Assembly (NCBI RefSeq): GCF_029227855.1
Contig: NZ_CP074356.1
DNA: 64,000 nucleotides
From: Escherichia coli
Lineage (GTDB): Bacteria; Pseudomonadota; Gammaproteobacteria; Enterobacterales; Enterobacteriaceae
Strand: one strand, 5' to 3'
Below are positions 2,796-64,000 of this stretch, piece after piece; the first letter of the stretch is position 1; each line of letters begins with the position of its first letter. The notes under the pieces were generated by a model. It did not search any database. It was not told where the DNA came from and was given only the letters and a program-made list of their open reading frames with translations. A program made the translations under genes and the position numbers.

Positions 2796-3845
2796 TTACA
2801 TCAATGGCTTTTGACCCCGCTGCCACCAGCGTAGCAACAATCGATCGGCGCTCTCTGCCGCGCTGCCGGTGAATCGGTCAATGAGTCGTTTACGCTGCAT
2901 ATAGCGTACATTGACCACTTCACGGCCTTCCATCAGGCTAAGAATAACTTCATCACTGGTGTTGATTTCATCAACCAGGCCTTTCTCTACCGCCTGTTGT
3001 CCGTACCAGTGTTCACCCGTTGCCACCTGTTCAATATCCAGAGACGGACGCATACGCTTCACAAAATCTTTAAATAACTGATGCGTTTCGTTCAGCTCTT
3101 CGCGGAATTTCTCCCGCCCTTCTTCGGTGTTTTCACCCAGCAAGGTCAGCGTGCGCTTATACTGCCCGGCGGTGTGCAGTTCGATATCAATATCTTTGCT
3201 TTTCAGGAAGCGGTTAAAGTTGGGCATTTGTGCCACCACGCCAATGGAACCCACAATAGCAAACGGTGCGGAAACAATTTTGTCCGCCACACAGGCCATC
3301 ATGTAACCGCCGCTGGCAGCGACTTTGTCTACCGTAACAGTTAAAGGAATGTTTTTATCACGCAGACGCTGCAGCTGCGAAGCCGCCAACCCGTAACCAT
3401 GCACCATGCCACCAGGGCTTTCCAGACGGAGCACAACCTGATCCTGCGGTTTGAATGCTGCGAGTACCGCCGTTATCTCTTCACGTAGCGAGTTCACTTC
3501 ATGGGCGTCCATGCTGCCTTTAAAATCCAGCACCCAGACGCGGGGTTTACTGTCAGTTGCCACCTCGCCCAGTTTGGCTTTCGCTTTTGCTGCTTTCGCT
3601 TCTTGCTTGTGCTTTTTCTTCTGCGCTTTGTGCCACTGTTTTTGCTGATGTGAGTCCATCAGCGCCGCGGCCAGTTCTTCTTTCATCTCCTTATACTGTT
3701 CGCTGAGATTGTTGACCCGTAACTCGCCACGCTGGCGTTTATTACGTTGAGCAACATTGACAATAATGGCGGCAATCGCCGCAATCGCTAGCACAACGGT
3801 AACGATTTTCGCCAAAAACAAACCATATTCAGACAACAATTCCAC
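2796..3845 (-). CDS. sohB: inner-membrane peptidase SohB (S49 family)
   Basis: 349 aa ORF with N-terminal TM segment (LAKIVTVVLAIAAIAAIIVNV) and peptidase core; conserved neighbour of yciN/yciK. Confidence 0.9.
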   Translation of the reverse strand: MELLSEYGLFLAKIVTVVLAIAAIAAIIVNVAQRNKRQRGELRVNNLSEQYKEMKEELAAALMDSHQQKQWHKAQKKKHKQEAKAAKAKAKLGEVATDSKPRVWVLDFKGSMDAHEVNSLREEITAVLAAFKPQDQVVLRLESPGGMVHGYGLAASQLQRLRDKNIPLTVTVDKVAASGGYMMACVADKIVSAPFAIVGSIGVVAQMPNFNRFLKSKDIDIELHTAGQYKRTLTLLGENTEEGREKFREELNETHQLFKDFVKRMRPSLDIEQVATGEHWYGQQAVEKGLVDEINTSDEVILSLMEGREVVNVRYMQRKRLIDRFTGSAAESADRLLLRWWQRGQKPLM

Positions 3846-4064
3846 GAGTCTCCACCTTGGTTAAACAACGCCTTGGCTCACAGTTTACAACAGGCATGTT
3901 AAGCCGTCTCGCAGAGATGTTATTGCAGCGAAAGTATGACAAAGTATCCATTTTGCGGTGTTATCGCCCCAGGCTGATTGAAATGCCCTTCTGTTTCAGG
4001 CATAAAGCCCCAAAGTCATAAAGTACACTGGCAGCGCGACAGACAACGTCGTTGAGGAGTAGCC

Positions 4065-11597: not shown

Positions 11598-11642
11598 ATG
11601 AAAGCAATTTTCGTACTGAAAGGTTGGTGGCGCACTTCCTGA
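11598..11642 (+). CDS. trpL: trp operon leader peptide (14 aa)
   Basis: atgaaagcaattttcgtactgaaaggttggtggcgcacttcctga = [14 protein letters not shown] with tandem Trp codons; too short for ORF track. Confidence 0.92.
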
Positions 11643-11683
11643 AACGGGCAGTGTATTCACCATGCGTAAAGCAATCAGATACC

Positions 11684-11712
11684 CAGCCCGCCTAATGAGC
11701 GGGCTTTTTTTT
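11684..11712 (+). terminator. trp attenuator (leader terminator)
   Basis: CAGCCCGCCTAATGAGCGGGCT hairpin followed by TTTTTTTT, about 25 bp upstream of trpE. Confidence 0.9.
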
Positions 11713-39559: not shown

Positions 39560-39973
39560 ATGAGCGAAGCACTTAAAATTCTGAACAACATCCGTACTCT
39601 TCGTGCGCAGGCAAGAGAATGTACACTTGAAACGCTGGAAGAAATGCTGGAAAAATTAGAAGTTGTTGTTAACGAACGTCGCGAAGAAGAAAGCGCGGCT
39701 GCTGCTGAAGTTGAAGAGCGCACTCGTAAACTGCAGCAATATCGCGAAATGCTGATCGCTGACGGTATTGACCCGAACGAACTGCTGAATAGCCTTGCTG
39801 CCGTTAAATCTGGCACCAAAGCTAAACGTGCTCAGCGTCCGGCAAAATATAGCTACGTTGACGAAAACGGCGAAACTAAAACCTGGACTGGCCAGGGCCG
39901 TACTCCAGCTGTAATCAAAAAAGCAATGGATGAGCAAGGTAAATCCCTCGACGATTTCCTGATCAAGCAATAA
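39560..39973 (+). CDS. hns: nucleoid-associated protein H-NS
   Basis: 137 aa [44 protein letters not shown]...TWTGQGRTP...; AT-rich upstream region 38957-39559. Confidence 0.97.
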
Positions 39974-40062: not shown

Positions 40063-40774
40063 AATAAATATCCTCCGGCATAGCCGGAGGTTTTTCAAAT
40101 GCGCCTATAAGGCTCTCTTACCAGCCGCGCCCTAACAGGCGCACACGATCTGACATTTGCATCCAACTTCGTTACTTACGGCCCGTAAACGGGCTGCCCG
40201 GATAGGGAATCGATAACTGCTCTCCCATTTTATCCTCTTCAAGCTGGTGCTTTATGTAATCCTGTATCTTCGCCGTGTTCTTACCCACCGTATCGACGTA
40301 GTACCCTCTGCACCAGAACTCCCTGTTCCTGTATTTGAATTTCAAATCACCAAACTGCTCGTAAAGCATCAGACTGCTTTTCCCTTTCAGATATCCCATA
40401 AAGCCGGATACGCTCATTTTGGGCGGGATCTCCACAAGCATATGGATATGATCTGCACAGCATTCAGCTTCCAGAATCCGTACACTTTTCCACTCACACA
40501 GCTTTCTCAAAATACTGCCTATTGCTCTACGCTTCTCTCTGTAGAACACCTGTCTTCGGTATTTTGGCGCAAAAACTATGTGATATTTACAGTTCCATCG
40601 GGTGTGCGCTAAGCTCTTTTCGTTCCCCATTGGGACCCCCTTTTGATTTCTTGTTTGACACTTGCAGTTGCCAGACCGCAAGGTGTTTTAACAAATCAAA
40701 AGGGGTTTTAATAACTGGCTTAAAGCTGAAAGCTTTCCGGAACCCCCAGCCTAGCTGGGGGTTTTCTGTGCACA
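40063..40774 (-). mobile_element. IS200 copy 1 (IS200/IS605 family), head-to-tail with copy 2
   Basis: About 712 bp unit with tnpA (HuH/Y1 transposase) and subterminal palindromes (CCTCCGGCATAGCCGGAGG at one end; CCCCCAGCCTAGCTGGGGG at the tnpA-proximal end). Boundaries are ambiguous by 1-3 nt. Confidence 0.85.
40172..40630 (-). CDS. tnpA: IS200 transposase TnpA (152 aa)
   Basis: Start refined to MGNEKSLAHTRWNCKYHIVFAPKYRR...; HxH motif (ADHIHMLVEIPP) and catalytic Tyr region (YIKHQ). Confidence 0.88.
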   Translation of the reverse strand: MGNEKSLAHTRWNCKYHIVFAPKYRRQVFYREKRRAIGSILRKLCEWKSVRILEAECCADHIHMLVEIPPKMSVSGFMGYLKGKSSLMLYEQFGDLKFKYRNREFWCRGYYVDTVGKNTAKIQDYIKHQLEEDKMGEQLSIPYPGSPFTGRK

Positions 40775-41487
40775 AATAAATATCCTCCGGCATAGCCGGA
40801 GGTTTTTCAAATGCGCCTATAAGGCTCTCTTACCAGCCGCGCCCTAACAGGCGCACACGATCTGACATTTGCATCCAACTTCGTTACTTACGGCCCGTAA
40901 ACGGGCTGCCCGGATAGGGAATCGATAACTGCTCTCCCATTTTATCCTCTTCAAGCTGGTGCTTTATGTAATCCTGTATCTTCGCCGTGTTCTTACCCAC
41001 TGTATCGACGTAGTACCCTCTGCACCAGAACTCCCTGTTCCTGTATTTGAATTTCAAATCACCAAACTGCTCGTAAAGCATCAGACTGCTTTTCCCTTTC
41101 AGATATCCCATAAACCCGGATACGCTCATTTTGGGCGGGATCTCCACAAGCATATGGATATGATCTGCACAGCATTCAGCTTCCAGAATCCGTACGCTTT
41201 TCCACTCACACAGCTTTCTCAAAATACTGCCTATTGCTCTACGCTTCTCTCTGTAGAACACCTGTCTTCGGTATTTTGGCGCAAAAACTATGTGATATTT
41301 ACAGTTCCATCGGGTGTGCGCTAAGCTCTTTTCGTTCCCCATTGGGACCCCCTTTTGATTTCTTGTTTGACACTTGCAGTTGCCAGACCGCAAAGTGTTT
41401 TAACAAATCAAAAGGGGTTTTAATAACTGGCTCAAAGCTGAAAGCTTTCCGGAACCCCCAGCCTAGCTGGGGGTTTTCTGTGCACAA
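40775..41487 (-). mobile_element. IS200 copy 2, directly abutting copy 1
   Basis: Second unit, same orientation, no spacer; differs from copy 1 at a handful of positions; ends at the A-run of the galU terminator. Confidence 0.85.
40884..41342 (-). CDS. tnpA: IS200 transposase TnpA (152 aa), copy 2
   Basis: Protein identical to copy 1 in the ORF track although the DNA differs at a few sites. Confidence 0.88.
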   Translation of the reverse strand: MGNEKSLAHTRWNCKYHIVFAPKYRRQVFYREKRRAIGSILRKLCEWKSVRILEAECCADHIHMLVEIPPKMSVSGFMGYLKGKSSLMLYEQFGDLKFKYRNREFWCRGYYVDTVGKNTAKIQDYIKHQLEEDKMGEQLSIPYPGSPFTGRK

Positions 41488-41516
41488 AAAAACGGCGTCG
41501 ATTGCTCAACGCCGTT
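41484..41516 (-). terminator. galU terminator
   Basis: On the minus strand AACGGCG..CGCCGTT hairpin followed by TTTTTTTT, just after the galU stop. Confidence 0.8.
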
Positions 41517-41540: not shown

Positions 41541-42449
41541 TTACTTCTTAATGCCCATCTCTTCTTCAAGCCAGGCTTTAAATTCCGTGCCAAGGGTGTT
41601 ATGACGAATACCGTATTCAACGAAGGCCTGCATGTAACCTAATTTATTACCGCAGTCATGGCTCTTCCCTTTCATATGATAGGCTTCCACCGTTTCTTTT
41701 TCGATCAGCATATCAATTGCGTCGGTGAGCTGAATTTCATCACCAGCTCCCGGAGGGGTTTTTGCCAGCAACGGCCAAATATCCGCGCTAAGTACGTAAC
41801 GACCCACAATAGCGAGATTAGACGGCGCAACATCCGCTTTCGGTTTTTCTACCACACCAACCATCGGTACGCTTTCACCCGGCGCTAATTCAACGCCTTT
41901 ACAATCCACAACGCCATATGCGGTAACATCAGCAACCGGTTCAACCATGATCTGGCTATGACCCGTTTCATCAAAGCGGCGGATCATCTCTGCCAGGTTA
42001 TCCTGTGACAAATCGGATTCATATTCATCCAGAATAACGTCAGGCAAAATAACAGCCACAGGTTCATCACCCACTACCGGGTGAGCACACAATACCGCAT
42101 GTCCCAGGCCTTTCGCCAGCCCCTGACGAACTTGCATAATAGTCACGTGCGGCGGACAAATAGACTGCACTTCATCAAGCAGTTGACGTTTTACACGTTT
42201 TTCCAGCATTGCTTCCAGTTCAAAACTGGTATCAAAGTGGTTTTCAATCGAGTTTTTAGATGAGTGAGTAACCAGCACAATTTCAGTAATGCCAGCCGCA
42301 ATACATTCATTCACGACGTATTGAATTAATGGCTTATCGACAAGTGGCAGCATCTCTTTCGGGATGGCTTTCGTCGCCGGCAACATCCTGGTTCCTAATC
42401 CCGCAACGGGGATAACGGCTTTTTTGACTTTCGTATTAATGGCAGCCAT
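41541..42449 (-). CDS. galU: UTP-glucose-1-phosphate uridylyltransferase
   Basis: 302 aa [35 protein letters not shown]... Confidence 0.95.
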
Positions 42450-46282: not shown

Positions 46283-46367
<85 letters not shown>

Positions 46368-46401
46368 TCTCAAGCATTACCTCAAAATTTGAATTACCCC
46401 T

Positions 46402-46486
<85 letters not shown>

Positions 46487-46672
46487 TCACTTTTCAAAAG
46501 TCCGTGAACTCTCAAACGAATCCGCAATTAAATATTCTGCCCATGCGGGGAAGGATGAGAAGCTTCGACCAAGGTGCGACTCGGGCGCCAGCGAGAAAGC
46601 GTTGCCGCAGGCAACGACCCGAAGGGTGAAGCGCGCAGCGCTGAGTAATCCTTCCCCCACCACCATCACTTC
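46487..46672 (+). ncRNA. rttR: tyrT operon distal repeat unit (rtT-like) ending in a copy of the tRNA 3' terminus
   Basis: About 186 bp after tyrV ends with TCCTTCCCCCACCACCATCAC, repeating the last 19 nt of the tRNA; matches the recalled organisation of the K-12 tyrT distal repeats. One unit seen here. Confidence 0.4.
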
Positions 46673-61405: not shown

Positions 61406-62506
61406 ATGTCAAATGCTCAAGAGGCGGTAAAAACCCGCCACAAGGAGACTTCGCTTATTTTCCCGGTTCTGGCGCTGGTAGTGCTGTTCCTGTGGGGAAG
61501 CAGCCAGACACTACCAGTGGTCATTGGCATCAATCTTCTTGCTCTTATTGGTATTTTAAGTAGCGCCTTTAGTGTTGTCCGTCATGCGGACGTATTAGCC
61601 CATCGCCTGGGAGAACCTTACGGTTCGCTTATTCTTAGCCTTTCAGTGGTTATTCTTGAAGTCAGTTTGATTTCAGCTTTAATGGCAACCGGCGATGCAG
61701 CGCCAACGCTAATGCGTGATACGCTCTATTCAATCATTATGATTGTTACCGGTGGGCTGGTTGGCTTTTCATTATTGTTGGGCGGACGCAAGTTTGCCAC
61801 CCAATATATGAATCTGTTTGGTATCAAGCAGTATTTAATTGCGCTGTTCCCCCTGGCGATAATCGTACTGGTATTTCCAATGGCTCTGCCTGCGGCGAAT
61901 TTTTCAACCGGTCAGGCGTTACTGGTAGCATTAATTTCTGCGGCAATGTATGGCGTATTTTTGCTGATCCAGACCAAAACGCATCAAAGTTTATTTGTCT
62001 ACGAGCACGAAGATGACAGTGATGATGACGACCCGCACCACGGTAAACCGTCTGCCCATAGCAGCCTTTGGCATGCTATCTGGTTGATTGTCCATCTGAT
62101 TGCCGTTATTGCAGTCACCAAAATGAACGCCAGCCCGCTGGAGACATTGCTCGACAGCATGAATGCCCCTGTCGCCTTTACTGGCTTCCTGGTGGCTCTG
62201 TTGATTCTGTCGCCGGAAGGTTTAGGTGCGTTAAAAGCAGTGTTGAACAACCAGGTCCAGCGCGCGATGAATCTGTTCTTTGGTTCAGTGTTAGCAACCA
62301 TTTCGCTTACCGTACCTGTCGTCACGCTAATTGCCTTTATGACGGGTAACGAATTGCAGTTTGCACTTGGTGCGCCAGAAATGGTAGTGATGGTGGCCTC
62401 TTTAGTGCTGTGCCATATCTCCTTCTCCACCGGACGTACTAACGTGCTCAATGGCGCAGCGCATCTGGCACTGTTTGCCGCCTATTTGATGACGATATTT
62501 GCCTGA
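61406..62506 (+). CDS. chaA: Na+(K+)/H+ and Ca2+/H+ antiporter ChaA
   Basis: Start refined to MSNAQEAVKTRHKETSLIFPVLALVV (366 aa). Confidence 0.9.
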   Translation: MSNAQEAVKTRHKETSLIFPVLALVVLFLWGSSQTLPVVIGINLLALIGILSSAFSVVRHADVLAHRLGEPYGSLILSLSVVILEVSLISALMATGDAAPTLMRDTLYSIIMIVTGGLVGFSLLLGGRKFATQYMNLFGIKQYLIALFPLAIIVLVFPMALPAANFSTGQALLVALISAAMYGVFLLIQTKTHQSLFVYEHEDDSDDDDPHHGKPSAHSSLWHAIWLIVHLIAVIAVTKMNASPLETLLDSMNAPVAFTGFLVALLILSPEGLGALKAVLNNQVQRAMNLFFGSVLATISLTVPVVTLIAFMTGNELQFALGAPEMVVMVASLVLCHISFSTGRTNVLNGAAHLALFAAYLMTIFA

Positions 62507-62792
62507 CAGTTATATCTCCTCCGATGACAGAAATCGGGGGAGATAATATAAATTCCTGCTTATTGTATTTCTTCATACTACCTGAACAGGTTGTTAATCA
62601 GAATTGCGAGCCTGTACCAGAACCTGCACGAAACCACTGCAACAGCTGTTGAAAAGCCGGAATGTACTCTTTATTGCAAACATTTCAGGGATGAAGTGAA
62701 GATGAATTGAGACGTAGTATCCACACCAAGCCGGCGTTATCCGGTGAGGCGCAATGTTGCGGGGGCTTTATCCCTGGTGGCATTGGTTGCTG

Positions 62793-62858
62793 GAAAGAGA
62801 AAACCCCCGCACGTTGAGAGGTAAAACCTGACAACAGAACGGGGGCTAATCTTGAACC
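62793..62858 (-). ncRNA. rdl: Rdl-type antisense RNA (antitoxin), copy 1
   Basis: Minus strand reads GGTTCAAGATTAGCCCCCGTTCTGTTGTCAGGTTTTACCTCTCAACGTGCGGGGGTTTTCTCTTT, matching recalled Rdl sequence and ending in a stem plus U-tract; lies antisense to the ldr leader. Ends approximate. Confidence 0.5.
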
Positions 62859-62911
62859 ATCAACAATTCAAGAATAGCCGCAAAATGTTGTCATTACAAC
62901 AAGGCGGCTAT

Positions 62912-63019
62912 ATGACGCTCGCGCAGTTTGCCATGATTTTCTGGCACGACCTGGCAGCACCGATCCTGGCGGGAATTATTACCGCAGCGATTGTCAGCTG
63001 GTGGCGTAACCGGAAGTAA
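62912..63019 (+). CDS. ldr: Ldr type I toxin peptide (35 aa)
   Basis: atgacgctcgcgcagtttgccatgattttctggcacgacctggcagcaccgatcctggcgggaattattaccgcagcgattgtcagctggtggcgtaaccggaagtaa = MTLAQFAMIFWHDLAAPILAGIITAAIVSWWRNRK; below ORF-track size cutoff. Confidence 0.85.
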   Translation: MTLAQFAMIFWHDLAAPILAGIITAAIVSWWRNRK

Positions 63020-63327
63020 GGTGAAAACGGGCGTCAGGCTGCCGTGATGGCAATATGCGCCCGAAACCGGCCGCAGGTGTAACAGCCTGCGGCCTTTTTT
63101 GTCTTTATCTCTTCCACAAGTAAATATTGGCAACCCGAGCTGGAAGCATCATCCAGAGCACTCATGAAACGACTGTAACAGCTGTTGAAAAACCGGAATG
63201 CACTCTTCATTGCATACATTTCAGGGATGAAGTGAAGATGAATTGAGTCGTAGTATCCACACCAAGCCGGCGTTATCCGGTGAGGCGCAATGTTGCGGGG
63301 GCTCTATCCCTGGTGGCATTGGTTGCT

Positions 63328-63393
63328 GGAAAGAGAAAACCCCCGCACGTTGAGAGGTATAACCTGACAACAGAACGGGGGCTAATCTTGAAC
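63328..63393 (-). ncRNA. rdl: Rdl-type antisense RNA (antitoxin), copy 2
   Basis: Same sequence as copy 1 with one or two substitutions. Confidence 0.5.
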
Positions 63394-63445
63394 CAGAACA
63401 ATTCAAAATAGCCGCAAAATGTTGTCATTACAACAAGGCGGCTAT

Positions 63446-63553
63446 ATGACGCTCACGCAGTTTGCCATGACTTTCTGGCACGACCTGGCAGCACCGATCC
63501 TGGCGGGAATTATTACCGCAGCGATTGTCAGCTGGTGGCGTAACCGGAAGTAA
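63446..63553 (+). CDS. ldr: Ldr type I toxin peptide (35 aa), variant copy
   Basis: MTLTQFAMTFWHDLAAPILAGIITAAIVSWWRNRK; differs from copy 1 at two residues (A4T, I9T). Confidence 0.85.
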   Translation: MTLTQFAMTFWHDLAAPILAGIITAAIVSWWRNRK

Positions 63554-63700
63554 GGTGAAAACGGGCGTCAGGCTGCCGTGATGGCAATATGCGCCCGAAA
63601 CCGGCCGCAGGAGTAACAGCCTGCGGCCTTTTTTGTATCCGGCCCCATGAAAAAAGCCTTAACGCAGAACGCTAAGGCTTTAGTTTTCAAGCAAAAAAGA

Positions 63701-64000
<300 letters not shown>

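What the first reader, a model, noticed from the sequence alone, without database searches (positions are those of the whole stretch)
62630..63637. Two Ldr/Rdl type I toxin-antitoxin long direct repeats between chaA and kdsA, missed by the ORF track
The chaA-kdsA spacer is built from two near-identical units of about 470 bp with a 537 bp period. Each unit encodes a 35 aa hydrophobic Ldr-type peptide (62912-63019 and 63446-63553) ending WWRNRK, and on the opposite strand a short structured RNA with a terminator, matching what I recall of Rdl antisense RNA. K-12 is described as having three LDR copies (ldrA/B/C) at this locus, whereas only two are present here. The second toxin copy carries two substitutions (A4T, I9T) in the N-terminal segment. 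Copy number and toxin sequence therefore both vary at this locus.
Basis: partly seen in the sequence, partly recalled or inferred. Interest (0 to 1): 0.5.

Follow-up and report, generated by a model that had tools for sequence, protein, structure and literature searches.

The report
Two known Ldr/Rdl toxin-antitoxin repeats
The gap between the chaA and kdsA genes of this E. coli sequence holds two copies of the well-known Ldr/Rdl toxin-antitoxin repeat, and having two copies instead of the three in K-12 is a common strain-to-strain difference already recorded in public genomes.

Summary

- **Repeat:** the 1,194-bp chaA-kdsA spacer holds two tandem LDR units with a period of 534-536 bp. Their cores are 96.9% identical.
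- **Toxin:** each unit encodes a 35-aa peptide that matches Pfam Ldr_toxin over its full length (E about 1e-24).
- **Antitoxin:** each unit also has, on the opposite strand 49-114 nt upstream of the ldr ATG, a full-length match to Rfam rdlD. Scores are 83.6 and 87 bits against a gathering score of 50.
- **Relation to K-12:** peptide 1 is identical to K-12 LdrA/LdrC. Peptide 2 (A4T, I9T) is the RefSeq protein WP_000176713.1, found on 995 public contigs. Unit 1 is closest to K-12 LDR-C and unit 2 to LDR-A.
- **Public record:** a 100% identical locus is in RefSeq (strain JNEC-KY178), with both toxins annotated.
- **Copy number:** in 58 resolved complete E. coli genomes, the spacer length implies one copy in 14, two in 19 and three in 25. 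Two copies is therefore an ordinary polymorphism, most simply explained by unequal recombination between the repeats.

How Rdl blocks translation is not settled in the literature. Nothing here departs from the family, so interest is low.

The parts
61406..62506 (+). chaA (Na+/K+:H+ antiporter), the left flank of the spacer
   Evidence: Annotation of the 100% identical RefSeq locus L001, transferred by coordinate offset. The ORF is listed.
62640..63098 (+). LDR unit 1 (chaA-proximal core), closest to K-12 LDR-C
   Evidence: Repeat families. It is 96.8% identical to the K-12 LDR-C unit over a 498-nt comparison. Core identity to unit 2 is 96.9%.
62727..63098 (+). Putative ldr-1 mRNA, about 372 nt, with a 5' UTR of about 185 nt. 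The start is inferred, not mapped.
   Evidence: Conservation with K-12 LDR-D begins at about 62712, at a TAGTAT/TAGAAT -10-like box. The 3' end is set by the terminator. The consensus promoter scan found nothing at 9 of 12 matches or better.
62798..62863 (-). Rdl-1 antisense RNA (antitoxin), complementary to positions -114 to -49 of the ldr-1 5' UTR
   Evidence: Rfam RF01813 rdlD: 83.6 bits, gathering score 50, model positions 1-66 of 66. Fold -27.3 kcal/mol, z = -4.5. A terminator-like hairpin with a U-run is present on the minus strand.
62912..63019 (+). ldr-1 CDS, 35 aa plus stop, identical to K-12 LdrA/LdrC
   Evidence: Translation. Pfam Ldr_toxin E = 1.8e-24 over positions 1-35 of 35. It is RefSeq WP_000170955.1 and occurs on at least 1,000 contigs.
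63069..63100 (+). Intrinsic terminator of ldr-1
   Evidence: Stem of 10 pairs, 8 of them G-C, followed by TTTTTT. Fold.
63176..63632 (+). LDR unit 2 (kdsA-proximal core), closest to K-12 LDR-A
   Evidence: 98.0% identical to the K-12 LDR-A unit. Repeat families.
63334..63399 (-). Rdl-2 antisense RNA (antitoxin)
   Evidence: Rfam RF01813 rdlD: 87.0 bits, model positions 1-66 of 66. Fold -26.7 kcal/mol, z = -5.3.
63446..63553 (+). ldr-2 CDS, 35 aa plus stop, the A4T/I9T variant
   Evidence: Translation. Pfam Ldr_toxin E = 7.7e-25. It is RefSeq WP_000176713.1 and occurs on 995 contigs.
63603..63634 (+). Intrinsic terminator of ldr-2
   Evidence: Stem of 9 pairs, 8 of them G-C, followed by TTTTTT.
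63701..64000 (-). 3' part of kdsA, the right flank, cut by the window end
   Evidence: Annotation of the identical locus L001. ORF.

Best explanation
The spacer holds two tandem copies of the chromosomal Ldr/Rdl type I toxin-antitoxin module, the 'long direct repeat' (LDR), at the same site as LDR-A/B/C of E. coli K-12.

**How each unit is thought to work:**
- Each unit makes an ldr mRNA of about 370 nt, ended by a strong intrinsic terminator. The mRNA encodes a 35-aa single-pass inner-membrane peptide.
- When over-produced, this peptide damages the membrane, stops ATP synthesis and arrests or kills the cell.
- From the opposite strand each unit makes a 66-nt Rdl RNA. It is perfectly complementary to positions -114 to -49 of its own ldr 5' UTR.
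- Rdl pairing keeps the toxin untranslated. It does not cover the Shine-Dalgarno sequence or the AUG, so the block must be indirect. The candidates are loss of an upstream ORF or standby site, RNase III cleavage of the duplex, or both.

**Why there are two copies:** unequal homologous recombination between the 535-bp tandem units, which produces one-, two- and three-copy alleles across E. coli.

**Shown here:** the identity of all parts, their positions and their family membership; the identity of peptide 1 to a toxin tested experimentally; and the spread of copy number in the population.

**Inferred:** the transcript start sites, expression in this strain, the toxicity of the A4T/I9T variant, and the step by which Rdl blocks translation.
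For: - **Family matches:** full-length Rfam rdlD hits above the gathering score in both units. Full-length Pfam Ldr_toxin matches for both peptides.
- **Relation to K-12:** unit-by-unit alignment shows 96.8% identity of unit 1 to LDR-C and 98.0% of unit 2 to LDR-A, and peptide 1 equals LdrA/LdrC. The flanking genes chaA and kdsA are the same.
- **RNA features:** terminators and stable Rdl hairpins are present.
- **Public record:** a 100% identical locus in RefSeq is annotated with two 'type I toxin-antitoxin system toxin Ldr family protein' CDSs.
- **Copy number:** 14 genomes with one copy, 19 with two and 25 with three among 58 resolved. The length classes were checked against annotation in Nissle (one copy), O157:H7 (two) and MG1655 (three).
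- **Literature, toxin:** LdrA and LdrD are toxic, membrane-located and inhibit ATP synthesis (PMC7472228, PMC12643268).
- **Literature, antitoxin:** Rdl represses translation from a site in the 5' UTR that does not overlap the ribosome-binding site, and the ldrX coupling model is unconfirmed (PMC4147584). An RNase III-cut dsRNA was captured at ldrD/rdlD (PMC7373196).
- **Literature, evolution:** lineage-specific duplications and losses of Ldr loci are reported (PMC2887945).
Against: - No expression data exist for this strain.
- The consensus sigma-70 scan found no promoter at 9 of 12 matches or better. The candidate promoters I read by eye are weaker, at about 8 of 12 for rdl.
- The upstream TTG ORF that could serve as a coupling ORF is not kept in one configuration. 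In unit 1 it is fused in frame to ldr. In unit 2 it stops after 7 codons. In K-12 ldrB and ldrC it ends at the ATGA of ldr. A strict uORF-coupling mechanism is therefore not supported by conservation.
- The toxicity of the A4T/I9T peptide is untested.
Confidence: 0.95

Rival explanations
1. One or both units are decayed relics: the sequences are kept but no longer act as toxin-antitoxin modules. For example, unit 2 might encode a weakened A4T/I9T peptide, or have a weakened rdl promoter because of the 1-nt deletion just upstream of Rdl-2.
For: - Unit 2 has two N-terminal substitutions.
- It also has a 1-nt deletion (CAAGAAT to CAA-AAT) in the stretch that would hold the rdl -10 box.
- The promoter scan found no strong consensus.
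- Decayed copies of chromosomal type I loci are known for hok (PMC2887945, introduction).
Against: - Both ORFs are intact, and both Rdl matches are full length and well above the gathering score.
- Both terminators are intact.
- I9T is also present in K-12 LdrB.
- Positions 4 and 9 lie in the variable N-terminal part, which also differs in LdrD.
- The variant peptide is found unchanged on 995 contigs, which suggests it is maintained.
Confidence: 0.08
2. The units belong to, or work exactly like, the hok/sok family, with a mok-like leader ORF and a fold-back mRNA that is activated by processing.
For: - The Rfam sok model gives weak hits on the plus strand, across the ldr 5' UTR and ending at the ldr AUG (27.0 and 25.3 bits).
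- The predicted minimum-energy fold of the putative full-length mRNA pairs the Shine-Dalgarno sequence (62903-62909) with the 3' UTR (63037-63043).
- The literature proposes a hok-like mechanism through ldrX (PMC4147584).
Against: - The sok hits are far below the gathering score of 59 and contain many non-canonical pairs.
- The peptides match Ldr_toxin, not Hok.
- The candidate leader ORF is not conserved in frame among units.
- The fold is a prediction on an inferred transcript. The mean unpaired probability of the SD-to-AUG stretch is 0.39-0.45, so the pairing is not dominant.
Confidence: 0.03
3. The repeat is a non-coding intergenic repeat, and the small ORFs and hairpins are incidental.
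For: LDRs were first catalogued only as intergenic repeats (Rudd 1999, as cited in PMC4147584).
Against: - Both parts give full-length, highly significant family matches.
- Peptide 1 is identical to LdrA, whose toxicity and membrane location were shown experimentally (PMC7472228, PMC12643268).
Confidence: 0.01

Closest known systems
E. coli K-12 LDR-A/B/C (ldrA-rdlA, ldrB-rdlB, ldrC-rdlC) between kdsA and chaA
   Same: - Same chromosomal site and orientation, and the same unit length of about 535 bp.
- Same internal layout: ldr 5' UTR, antisense Rdl 49-114 nt upstream of the ATG, a 35-aa ORF, and a terminator.
- Unit 1 is 96.8% identical to LDR-C and unit 2 is 98.0% identical to LDR-A.
- Peptide 1 is identical to LdrA/LdrC.
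   Different: - Two units instead of three; the spacer is 1,194 bp against 1,729 bp.
- Peptide 2 has A4T, which is not in K-12, and I9T, which is in LdrB.
- The units are mosaics. The 5' end of Rdl in unit 1 (GAACCATCAACAATTC) is the type found in O157:H7 unit 2 and Nissle, not the LDR-C type.
- The upstream TTG ORF is in a different frame configuration in both units.
E. coli K-12 LDR-D (ldrD-rdlD), the experimentally characterised member and the seed of Rfam RF01813
   Same: - Same architecture and the same families.
- The 5' UTR from about 62728, the Rdl stem, the region around the start codon and the 3' UTR hairpin region are strongly conserved.
   Different: - Different locus, between bcsG and yhjV.
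- About 67% nucleotide identity over the unit.
- The peptide is MTFAELGMAFWHDLAAPVIAGILASMIVNWLNKRK.
RefSeq locus of E. coli JNEC-KY178 (NZ_AP045174.1, 2934461-2935661)
   Same: 100% identical over the 1,201-nt spacer query and over 4 kb of flanks. Both Ldr CDSs are annotated, as WP_000170955.1 and WP_000176713.1.
   Different: None in sequence. That record does not annotate the Rdl RNAs.
Fst/RNAI-RNAII (par of pAD1), the Gram-positive branch of the Fst/Ldr superfamily
   Same: A small single-pass membrane toxin with a conserved tryptophan after the transmembrane helix, followed by charged residues. There is a weak NCBIfam Fst hit of 14.6 bits. The superfamily link is published (PMC2887945).
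   Different: The hit is below the curated cutoff of 26 bits. The Fst antitoxin RNAs lie opposite the 3' end of the toxin gene, whereas Rdl lies opposite the 5' UTR (PMC2887945).

Membership tests
Ldr toxin (Pfam PF13940) | 35-aa peptide matching the Ldr_toxin profile over its full length | tested here: met
   Peptide 1: E = 1.8e-24, 85.9 bits, positions 1-35 of 35. Peptide 2: E = 7.7e-25, 87.1 bits, positions 1-35 of 35.
Ldr toxin (Pfam PF13940) | Hydrophobic transmembrane segment followed by tryptophan and a cluster of charged residues at the C-terminus (Fst/Ldr superfamily signature, PMC2887945) | tested here: met
   Read directly from the sequence...LAAPILAGIITAAIVSWWRNRK in both peptides.
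Ldr toxin (Pfam PF13940) | Growth arrest or killing on over-expression | not testable with these tools
   Peptide 1 is identical to LdrA, for which toxicity is published (PMC7472228, PMC12643268). The A4T/I9T variant has not been tested.
Rdl antitoxin RNA (Rfam RF01813 rdlD) | Match to the covariance model at or above the gathering score of 50 bits | tested here: met
   83.6 bits (62798-62863, -) and 87.0 bits (63334-63399, -), both covering model positions 1-66 of 66.
Rdl antitoxin RNA (Rfam RF01813 rdlD) | Encoded in cis, antisense to the ldr 5' UTR, without overlapping the ribosome-binding site or start codon (PMC4147584) | tested here: met
   Rdl covers positions -114 to -49 relative to each ldr ATG. 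The Shine-Dalgarno sequence (AAGGCGG) lies at about -14 to -8.
Rdl antitoxin RNA (Rfam RF01813 rdlD) | An expressed, unstable RNA of about 60-70 nt that represses Ldr synthesis | not testable with these tools
   Only the sequence is available. A stable hairpin with a U-run is predicted.
LDR (long direct repeat) at the chaA-kdsA locus | Tandem units of about 530 bp between chaA and kdsA, homologous to K-12 LDR-A/B/C | tested here: met
   Period 534-536 bp. Identity to the K-12 units is 92.8-98.0%. The flanking genes are the same.
Hok/Sok (Rfam RF01794 sok) | Match to the sok model at or above the gathering score of 59 bits | tested here: not met
   27.0 and 25.3 bits, on the ldr sense strand.
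Fst toxin (NCBIfam NF033608) | Score at or above the curated cutoff of 26 bits | tested here: not met
   14.6 and 14.5 bits.

The most novel reading that the evidence does not exclude
The two units might not be redundant. Three differences could give them distinct regulation.
- The A4T/I9T toxin could differ in potency, or in its interaction with YajC.
- The two Rdl RNAs differ by one loop nucleotide and by 3-4 nt at the 5' end, which could make each specific to its own mRNA.
- The upstream TTG ORF is rearranged. It is fused in frame to ldr in unit 1, giving a possible 55-aa extended peptide, and it is cut to 7 codons in unit 2.

If the 'ldrX' coupling model is true, this strain would be a natural test of it. 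Nothing in my evidence excludes this, and nothing points to it either. All these variants are widespread alleles.
Probability: 0.1. Interest if true: 0.3.

Novelty: already known. Interest (0 to 1): 0.08.

Why it matters
It matters little beyond correct annotation. The window carries two intact, textbook type I toxin-antitoxin modules. An ORF caller with a length floor will skip the toxins, and the RefSeq record of the identical locus leaves the Rdl RNAs unannotated. The copy-number survey is a useful reminder that K-12's three copies are only one of three common alleles at this site (one, two or three units). Deletion or expression studies of ldr/rdl in non-K-12 strains should therefore check the local copy number and alleles first.

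Tried and rejected
- **Promoter scan:** no sigma-70-like site at 9 of 12 matches or better in 62500-63710. The shuffled-sequence expectation was 1.5. The promoter positions I give were read by eye and from conservation with LDR-D, and they are marked as inferred.
- **NCBIfam:** no Ldr-specific model hit, only a sub-threshold Fst hit. I used Pfam instead.
- **Sub-threshold sok hits:** considered as a sign of hok/sok relatedness and rejected as family membership.
- **Papers I could not read:** Kawano 2012 (RNA Biol) and Kawano 2002 (DNA Res) are not held. The published transcript start sites, half-lives and early strain comparisons therefore come only through secondary citations (PMC4147584, PMC7373196, PMC12643268).
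- **First attempt at the ldrD locus:** I used outdated coordinates and corrected them.
- **'K-12 minus LDR-B':** rejected as too simple, because the units are mosaics.
- **Conserved leader ORF under the Rdl target:** the TTG ORF is not conserved in frame. A 25-aa ATG uORF is kept in most units, but nucleotide conservation of a structured UTR could explain that. I make no coding claim.
- **Large collection scans:** I did not scan genome contigs or metagenome contigs for distant Ldr loci. The finding is ordinary and the cost was not justified.

Full report
**1. What is in the sequence**

The region between the stop codon of chaA (61406-62506, +) and the stop codon of kdsA (63701 onward, -) is 1,194 bp long. 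The flanking genes were named from a 100% identical annotated RefSeq locus.

The repeat finder reports two direct-repeat families that together span the spacer:
- 62560-62859 versus 63096-63395: 300 nt, 87% identity, spacing 536.
- 62873-63102 versus 63407-63636: 230 nt, 99% identity, spacing 534.

A global alignment of the well-conserved cores (62640-63098 and 63176-63632) gives 445 identical columns out of 459, or 96.9%. A poorly conserved linker of about 75 bp lies between the units. Chance cannot produce this.

**2. The parts of each unit**

*Toxin ORFs.*
- The ORFs at 62912-63019 and 63446-63553 each have 35 codons plus a stop.
- They encode MTLAQFAMIFWHDLAAPILAGIITAAIVSWWRNRK and MTLTQFAMTFWHDLAAPILAGIITAAIVSWWRNRK.
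- Both match Pfam PF13940 (Ldr_toxin) across all 35 profile positions, with E = 1.8e-24 and 7.7e-25.
- NCBIfam gave only a sub-threshold hit to the related Fst family (14.6 bits, cutoff 26). This fits the published Fst/Ldr superfamily link (PMC2887945).

*Antisense RNAs.*
- On the minus strand, Rfam RF01813 (rdlD antitoxin) matches 62798-62863 at 83.6 bits and 63334-63399 at 87.0 bits.
- Both matches cover model positions 1-66 of 66, and the gathering score is 50.
- Each folds as a long interrupted hairpin followed by a U-run. The energies are -27.3 and -26.7 kcal/mol, with z = -4.5 and -5.3 against shuffles. The terminator scan also picks them up.
- Each Rdl is complementary to positions -114 to -49 of its ldr 5' UTR. 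It does not touch the Shine-Dalgarno sequence (AAGGCGG, about -14 to -8) or the AUG.

*Terminators.* Strong intrinsic terminators close each ldr transcript at 63069-63094 and 63603-63628, with stems of 9-10 pairs followed by T6.

**3. Comparison with K-12**

MG1655 carries ldrC/rdlC, ldrB/rdlB and ldrA/rdlA, in that order from chaA to kdsA, in a 1,729-bp spacer. In 498-nt unit alignments:
- Unit 1 is closest to LDR-C (96.8%).
- Unit 2 is closest to LDR-A (98.0%).
- The two window units are 93.6% identical to each other.

Peptide 1 is identical to LdrA/LdrC. Peptide 2 differs by A4T and I9T, and I9T is also the LdrB residue.

The units are mosaics. The stretch at the 5' end of Rdl in unit 1 (GAACCATCAACAATTC) is the type seen in O157:H7 unit 2 and in Nissle, not the LDR-C type. 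'K-12 minus the middle copy' is thus a simplification. Recombination and gene conversion among units fit the pattern better.

Against the more distant LDR-D (about 67% identity overall), conservation starts at about 62712. It is strongest in four places: the 5' UTR, the Rdl stem, the region around the start codon, and the first 3' UTR hairpin.

**4. How common this is**

- A megablast of the spacer finds the locus in 5,425 of 5,426 complete E. coli genomes. One of them, JNEC-KY178, is 100% identical. Its RefSeq annotation lists both toxins, WP_000170955.1 and WP_000176713.1, as 'type I toxin-antitoxin system toxin Ldr family protein'.
- Both exact peptide sequences are in the large protein collection. 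Peptide 1 is on at least 1,000 contigs and peptide 2 on 995.
- To estimate copy number, I searched with a flank-only query (2 kb ending at the chaA stop plus 2 kb starting at the kdsA stop). I read the spacer length from the span of the joined match in an evenly spread sample of 60 records.

| Spacer length | Implied LDR units | Genomes |
|---|---|---|
| about 660 bp | 1 | 14 |
| about 1,194 bp | 2 | 17 |
| about 1,906 bp | 2 plus an IS200C insertion | 2 |
| about 1,729 bp | 3 | 25 |
| not resolved | - | 2 |

- I checked the length classes against annotation: Nissle has one Ldr CDS, O157:H7 F6667 has two, MG1655 has three, and strain 98228 has two plus IS200C.
- The sample is ordered by similarity to the query and includes several laboratory K-12 and B derivatives, so the fractions are rough. 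The conclusion that two copies is a common allele is safe.
- Fozo et al. 2010 had already reported differing Ldr counts among enterobacterial genomes, and inferred lineage-specific duplications and losses (PMC2887945).

**5. How it most likely works**

*Established for the family, from the literature.*
- LdrA and LdrD are toxic when over-produced. LdrA sits in the inner membrane and stops ATP synthesis, presumably by forming pores (PMC7472228, PMC12643268).
- Rdl represses Ldr synthesis.
- Its target is in the 5' UTR and not at the ribosome-binding site, so the block is indirect. A hok/mok-like coupling through a leader ORF, 'ldrX', was proposed but remains unconfirmed (PMC4147584).
- An RNase III-cut duplex of about 21 nt was captured in the ldrD/rdlD overlap (PMC7373196).

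*What I could add from the sequence.*
- A TTG ORF starts inside the Rdl target, at about -59 or -60. In K-12 ldrB, K-12 ldrC and O157:H7 unit 1 it ends at the ATGA that overlaps the ldr start. This is the geometry a coupling model needs.
- In unit 1 of this window a 1-nt insertion fuses that ORF in frame to ldr, giving a 55-aa ORF. Some GenBank records annotate this longer form. In unit 2 a 1-nt deletion stops it after 7 codons. Conservation therefore does not support a strict coupling model through this ORF.
- A 25-aa ATG uORF (62754-62831 and 63290-63367) is kept in nearly all units, including LDR-D. Nucleotide conservation of a structured UTR could explain that equally well.
- I took the mRNA to start at about 62727, downstream of a TAGTAT/TAGAAT box where conservation with LDR-D begins. 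This start is inferred, not mapped. On that transcript, the minimum-energy fold pairs the Shine-Dalgarno sequence (62903-62909) with 63037-63043 in the 3' UTR, which recalls the hok fold-back. The pairing is not dominant, with a mean unpaired probability of 0.39-0.45. I treat it as a lead only.

**6. Rivals**

- *Decayed copies.* This is unlikely, because all parts are intact and the variant peptide is widespread.
- *hok/sok membership.* This is rejected. The sok model scores 27 and 25 bits against a gathering score of 59, and the peptides are Ldr, not Hok.
- *A purely non-coding repeat.* This is rejected by the family matches and by published experiments on the identical peptide.

**7. Verdict**

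The feature is a known module at its known locus, in a known and common copy-number state, with known toxin alleles. The exact sequence is already in RefSeq. Novelty: already known. Interest is low.

Noticed in passing
window 40065-41491 (-): Two tandem IS200C copies lie between hns (39560-39973) and galU (41541-42449). The period is 712 bp and the internal repeat is 100% identical over 300 nt. Each carries a Y1 transposase ORF and a full-length Rfam STnc490 hit, at 40640-40763 and 41352-41475.
   Followed up: partly
window 63651/63652; L005 about 3147-3858: The closest relatives apart from JNEC-KY178 carry a 712-bp IS200C between LDR unit 2 and kdsA, which this window lacks. They are dozens of clinical isolates at 99.8% identity. 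The inserted element is 99.3-99.9% identical to the two IS200C copies at 40065-41491.
   Followed up: partly
window 62761-62914 and 63297-63448 (+): The Rfam sok model gives sub-threshold matches (27.0 and 25.3 bits, gathering score 59) over the ldr 5' UTR, ending at the ldr AUG. They are too weak for membership. At most they hint at a hok-like leader architecture.
   Followed up: partly
window 62852-63019 and 63388-63411 (+): The TTG ORF that begins inside the Rdl target is fused in frame to ldr in unit 1 (55 aa) and stops after 7 codons in unit 2. In K-12 ldrB and ldrC it ends at the ATGA of ldr.
   Followed up: partly
window 62754-62831 and 63290-63367 (+): A 25-aa ATG uORF (MLRGLYPWWHWLLERENPRTLRG.T) is kept in both units, in K-12 LDR-A, -B and -D, in O157:H7 and in Nissle. 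It is lost in K-12 LDR-C through a 1-nt deletion. This could reflect UTR structure rather than coding.
   Followed up: no
window 62885-62920 with 63030-63056; likewise 63419-63454 with 63564-63590: The predicted fold shows long-range pairing of the ldr translation-initiation region with the first 3' UTR hairpin. That 3' UTR stretch is more conserved against LDR-D than the coding sequence is. No covariation test was possible with the few sequences in hand.
   Followed up: partly
L004 about 2320-2335 (E. coli O157:H7 F6667, unit 1): A 6-nt deletion (CAACAGAACGGGGGCT to CAACAGGGCT) removes part of the 5' arm of the Rdl stem in the chaA-proximal unit of O157:H7. That antitoxin copy may be defective.
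   Followed up: no
L003 2398-2505 (E. coli Nissle): The single-copy allele encodes a further Ldr variant, MTLAQFAVIFWHDLAAPILAGIITAAIVGWWRSRK (M8V, S29G, N33S relative to LdrA), and has a 3-nt insertion just upstream of the Shine-Dalgarno sequence.
   Followed up: no
window 11619-11712, 46283-46483, 46534-46665 (+): Other Rfam hits above the gathering score: the Trp operon leader, two identical tRNA hits 119 nt apart, and RtT RNA. All three are catalogued Rfam families; I did not check their gene context.
   Followed up: no
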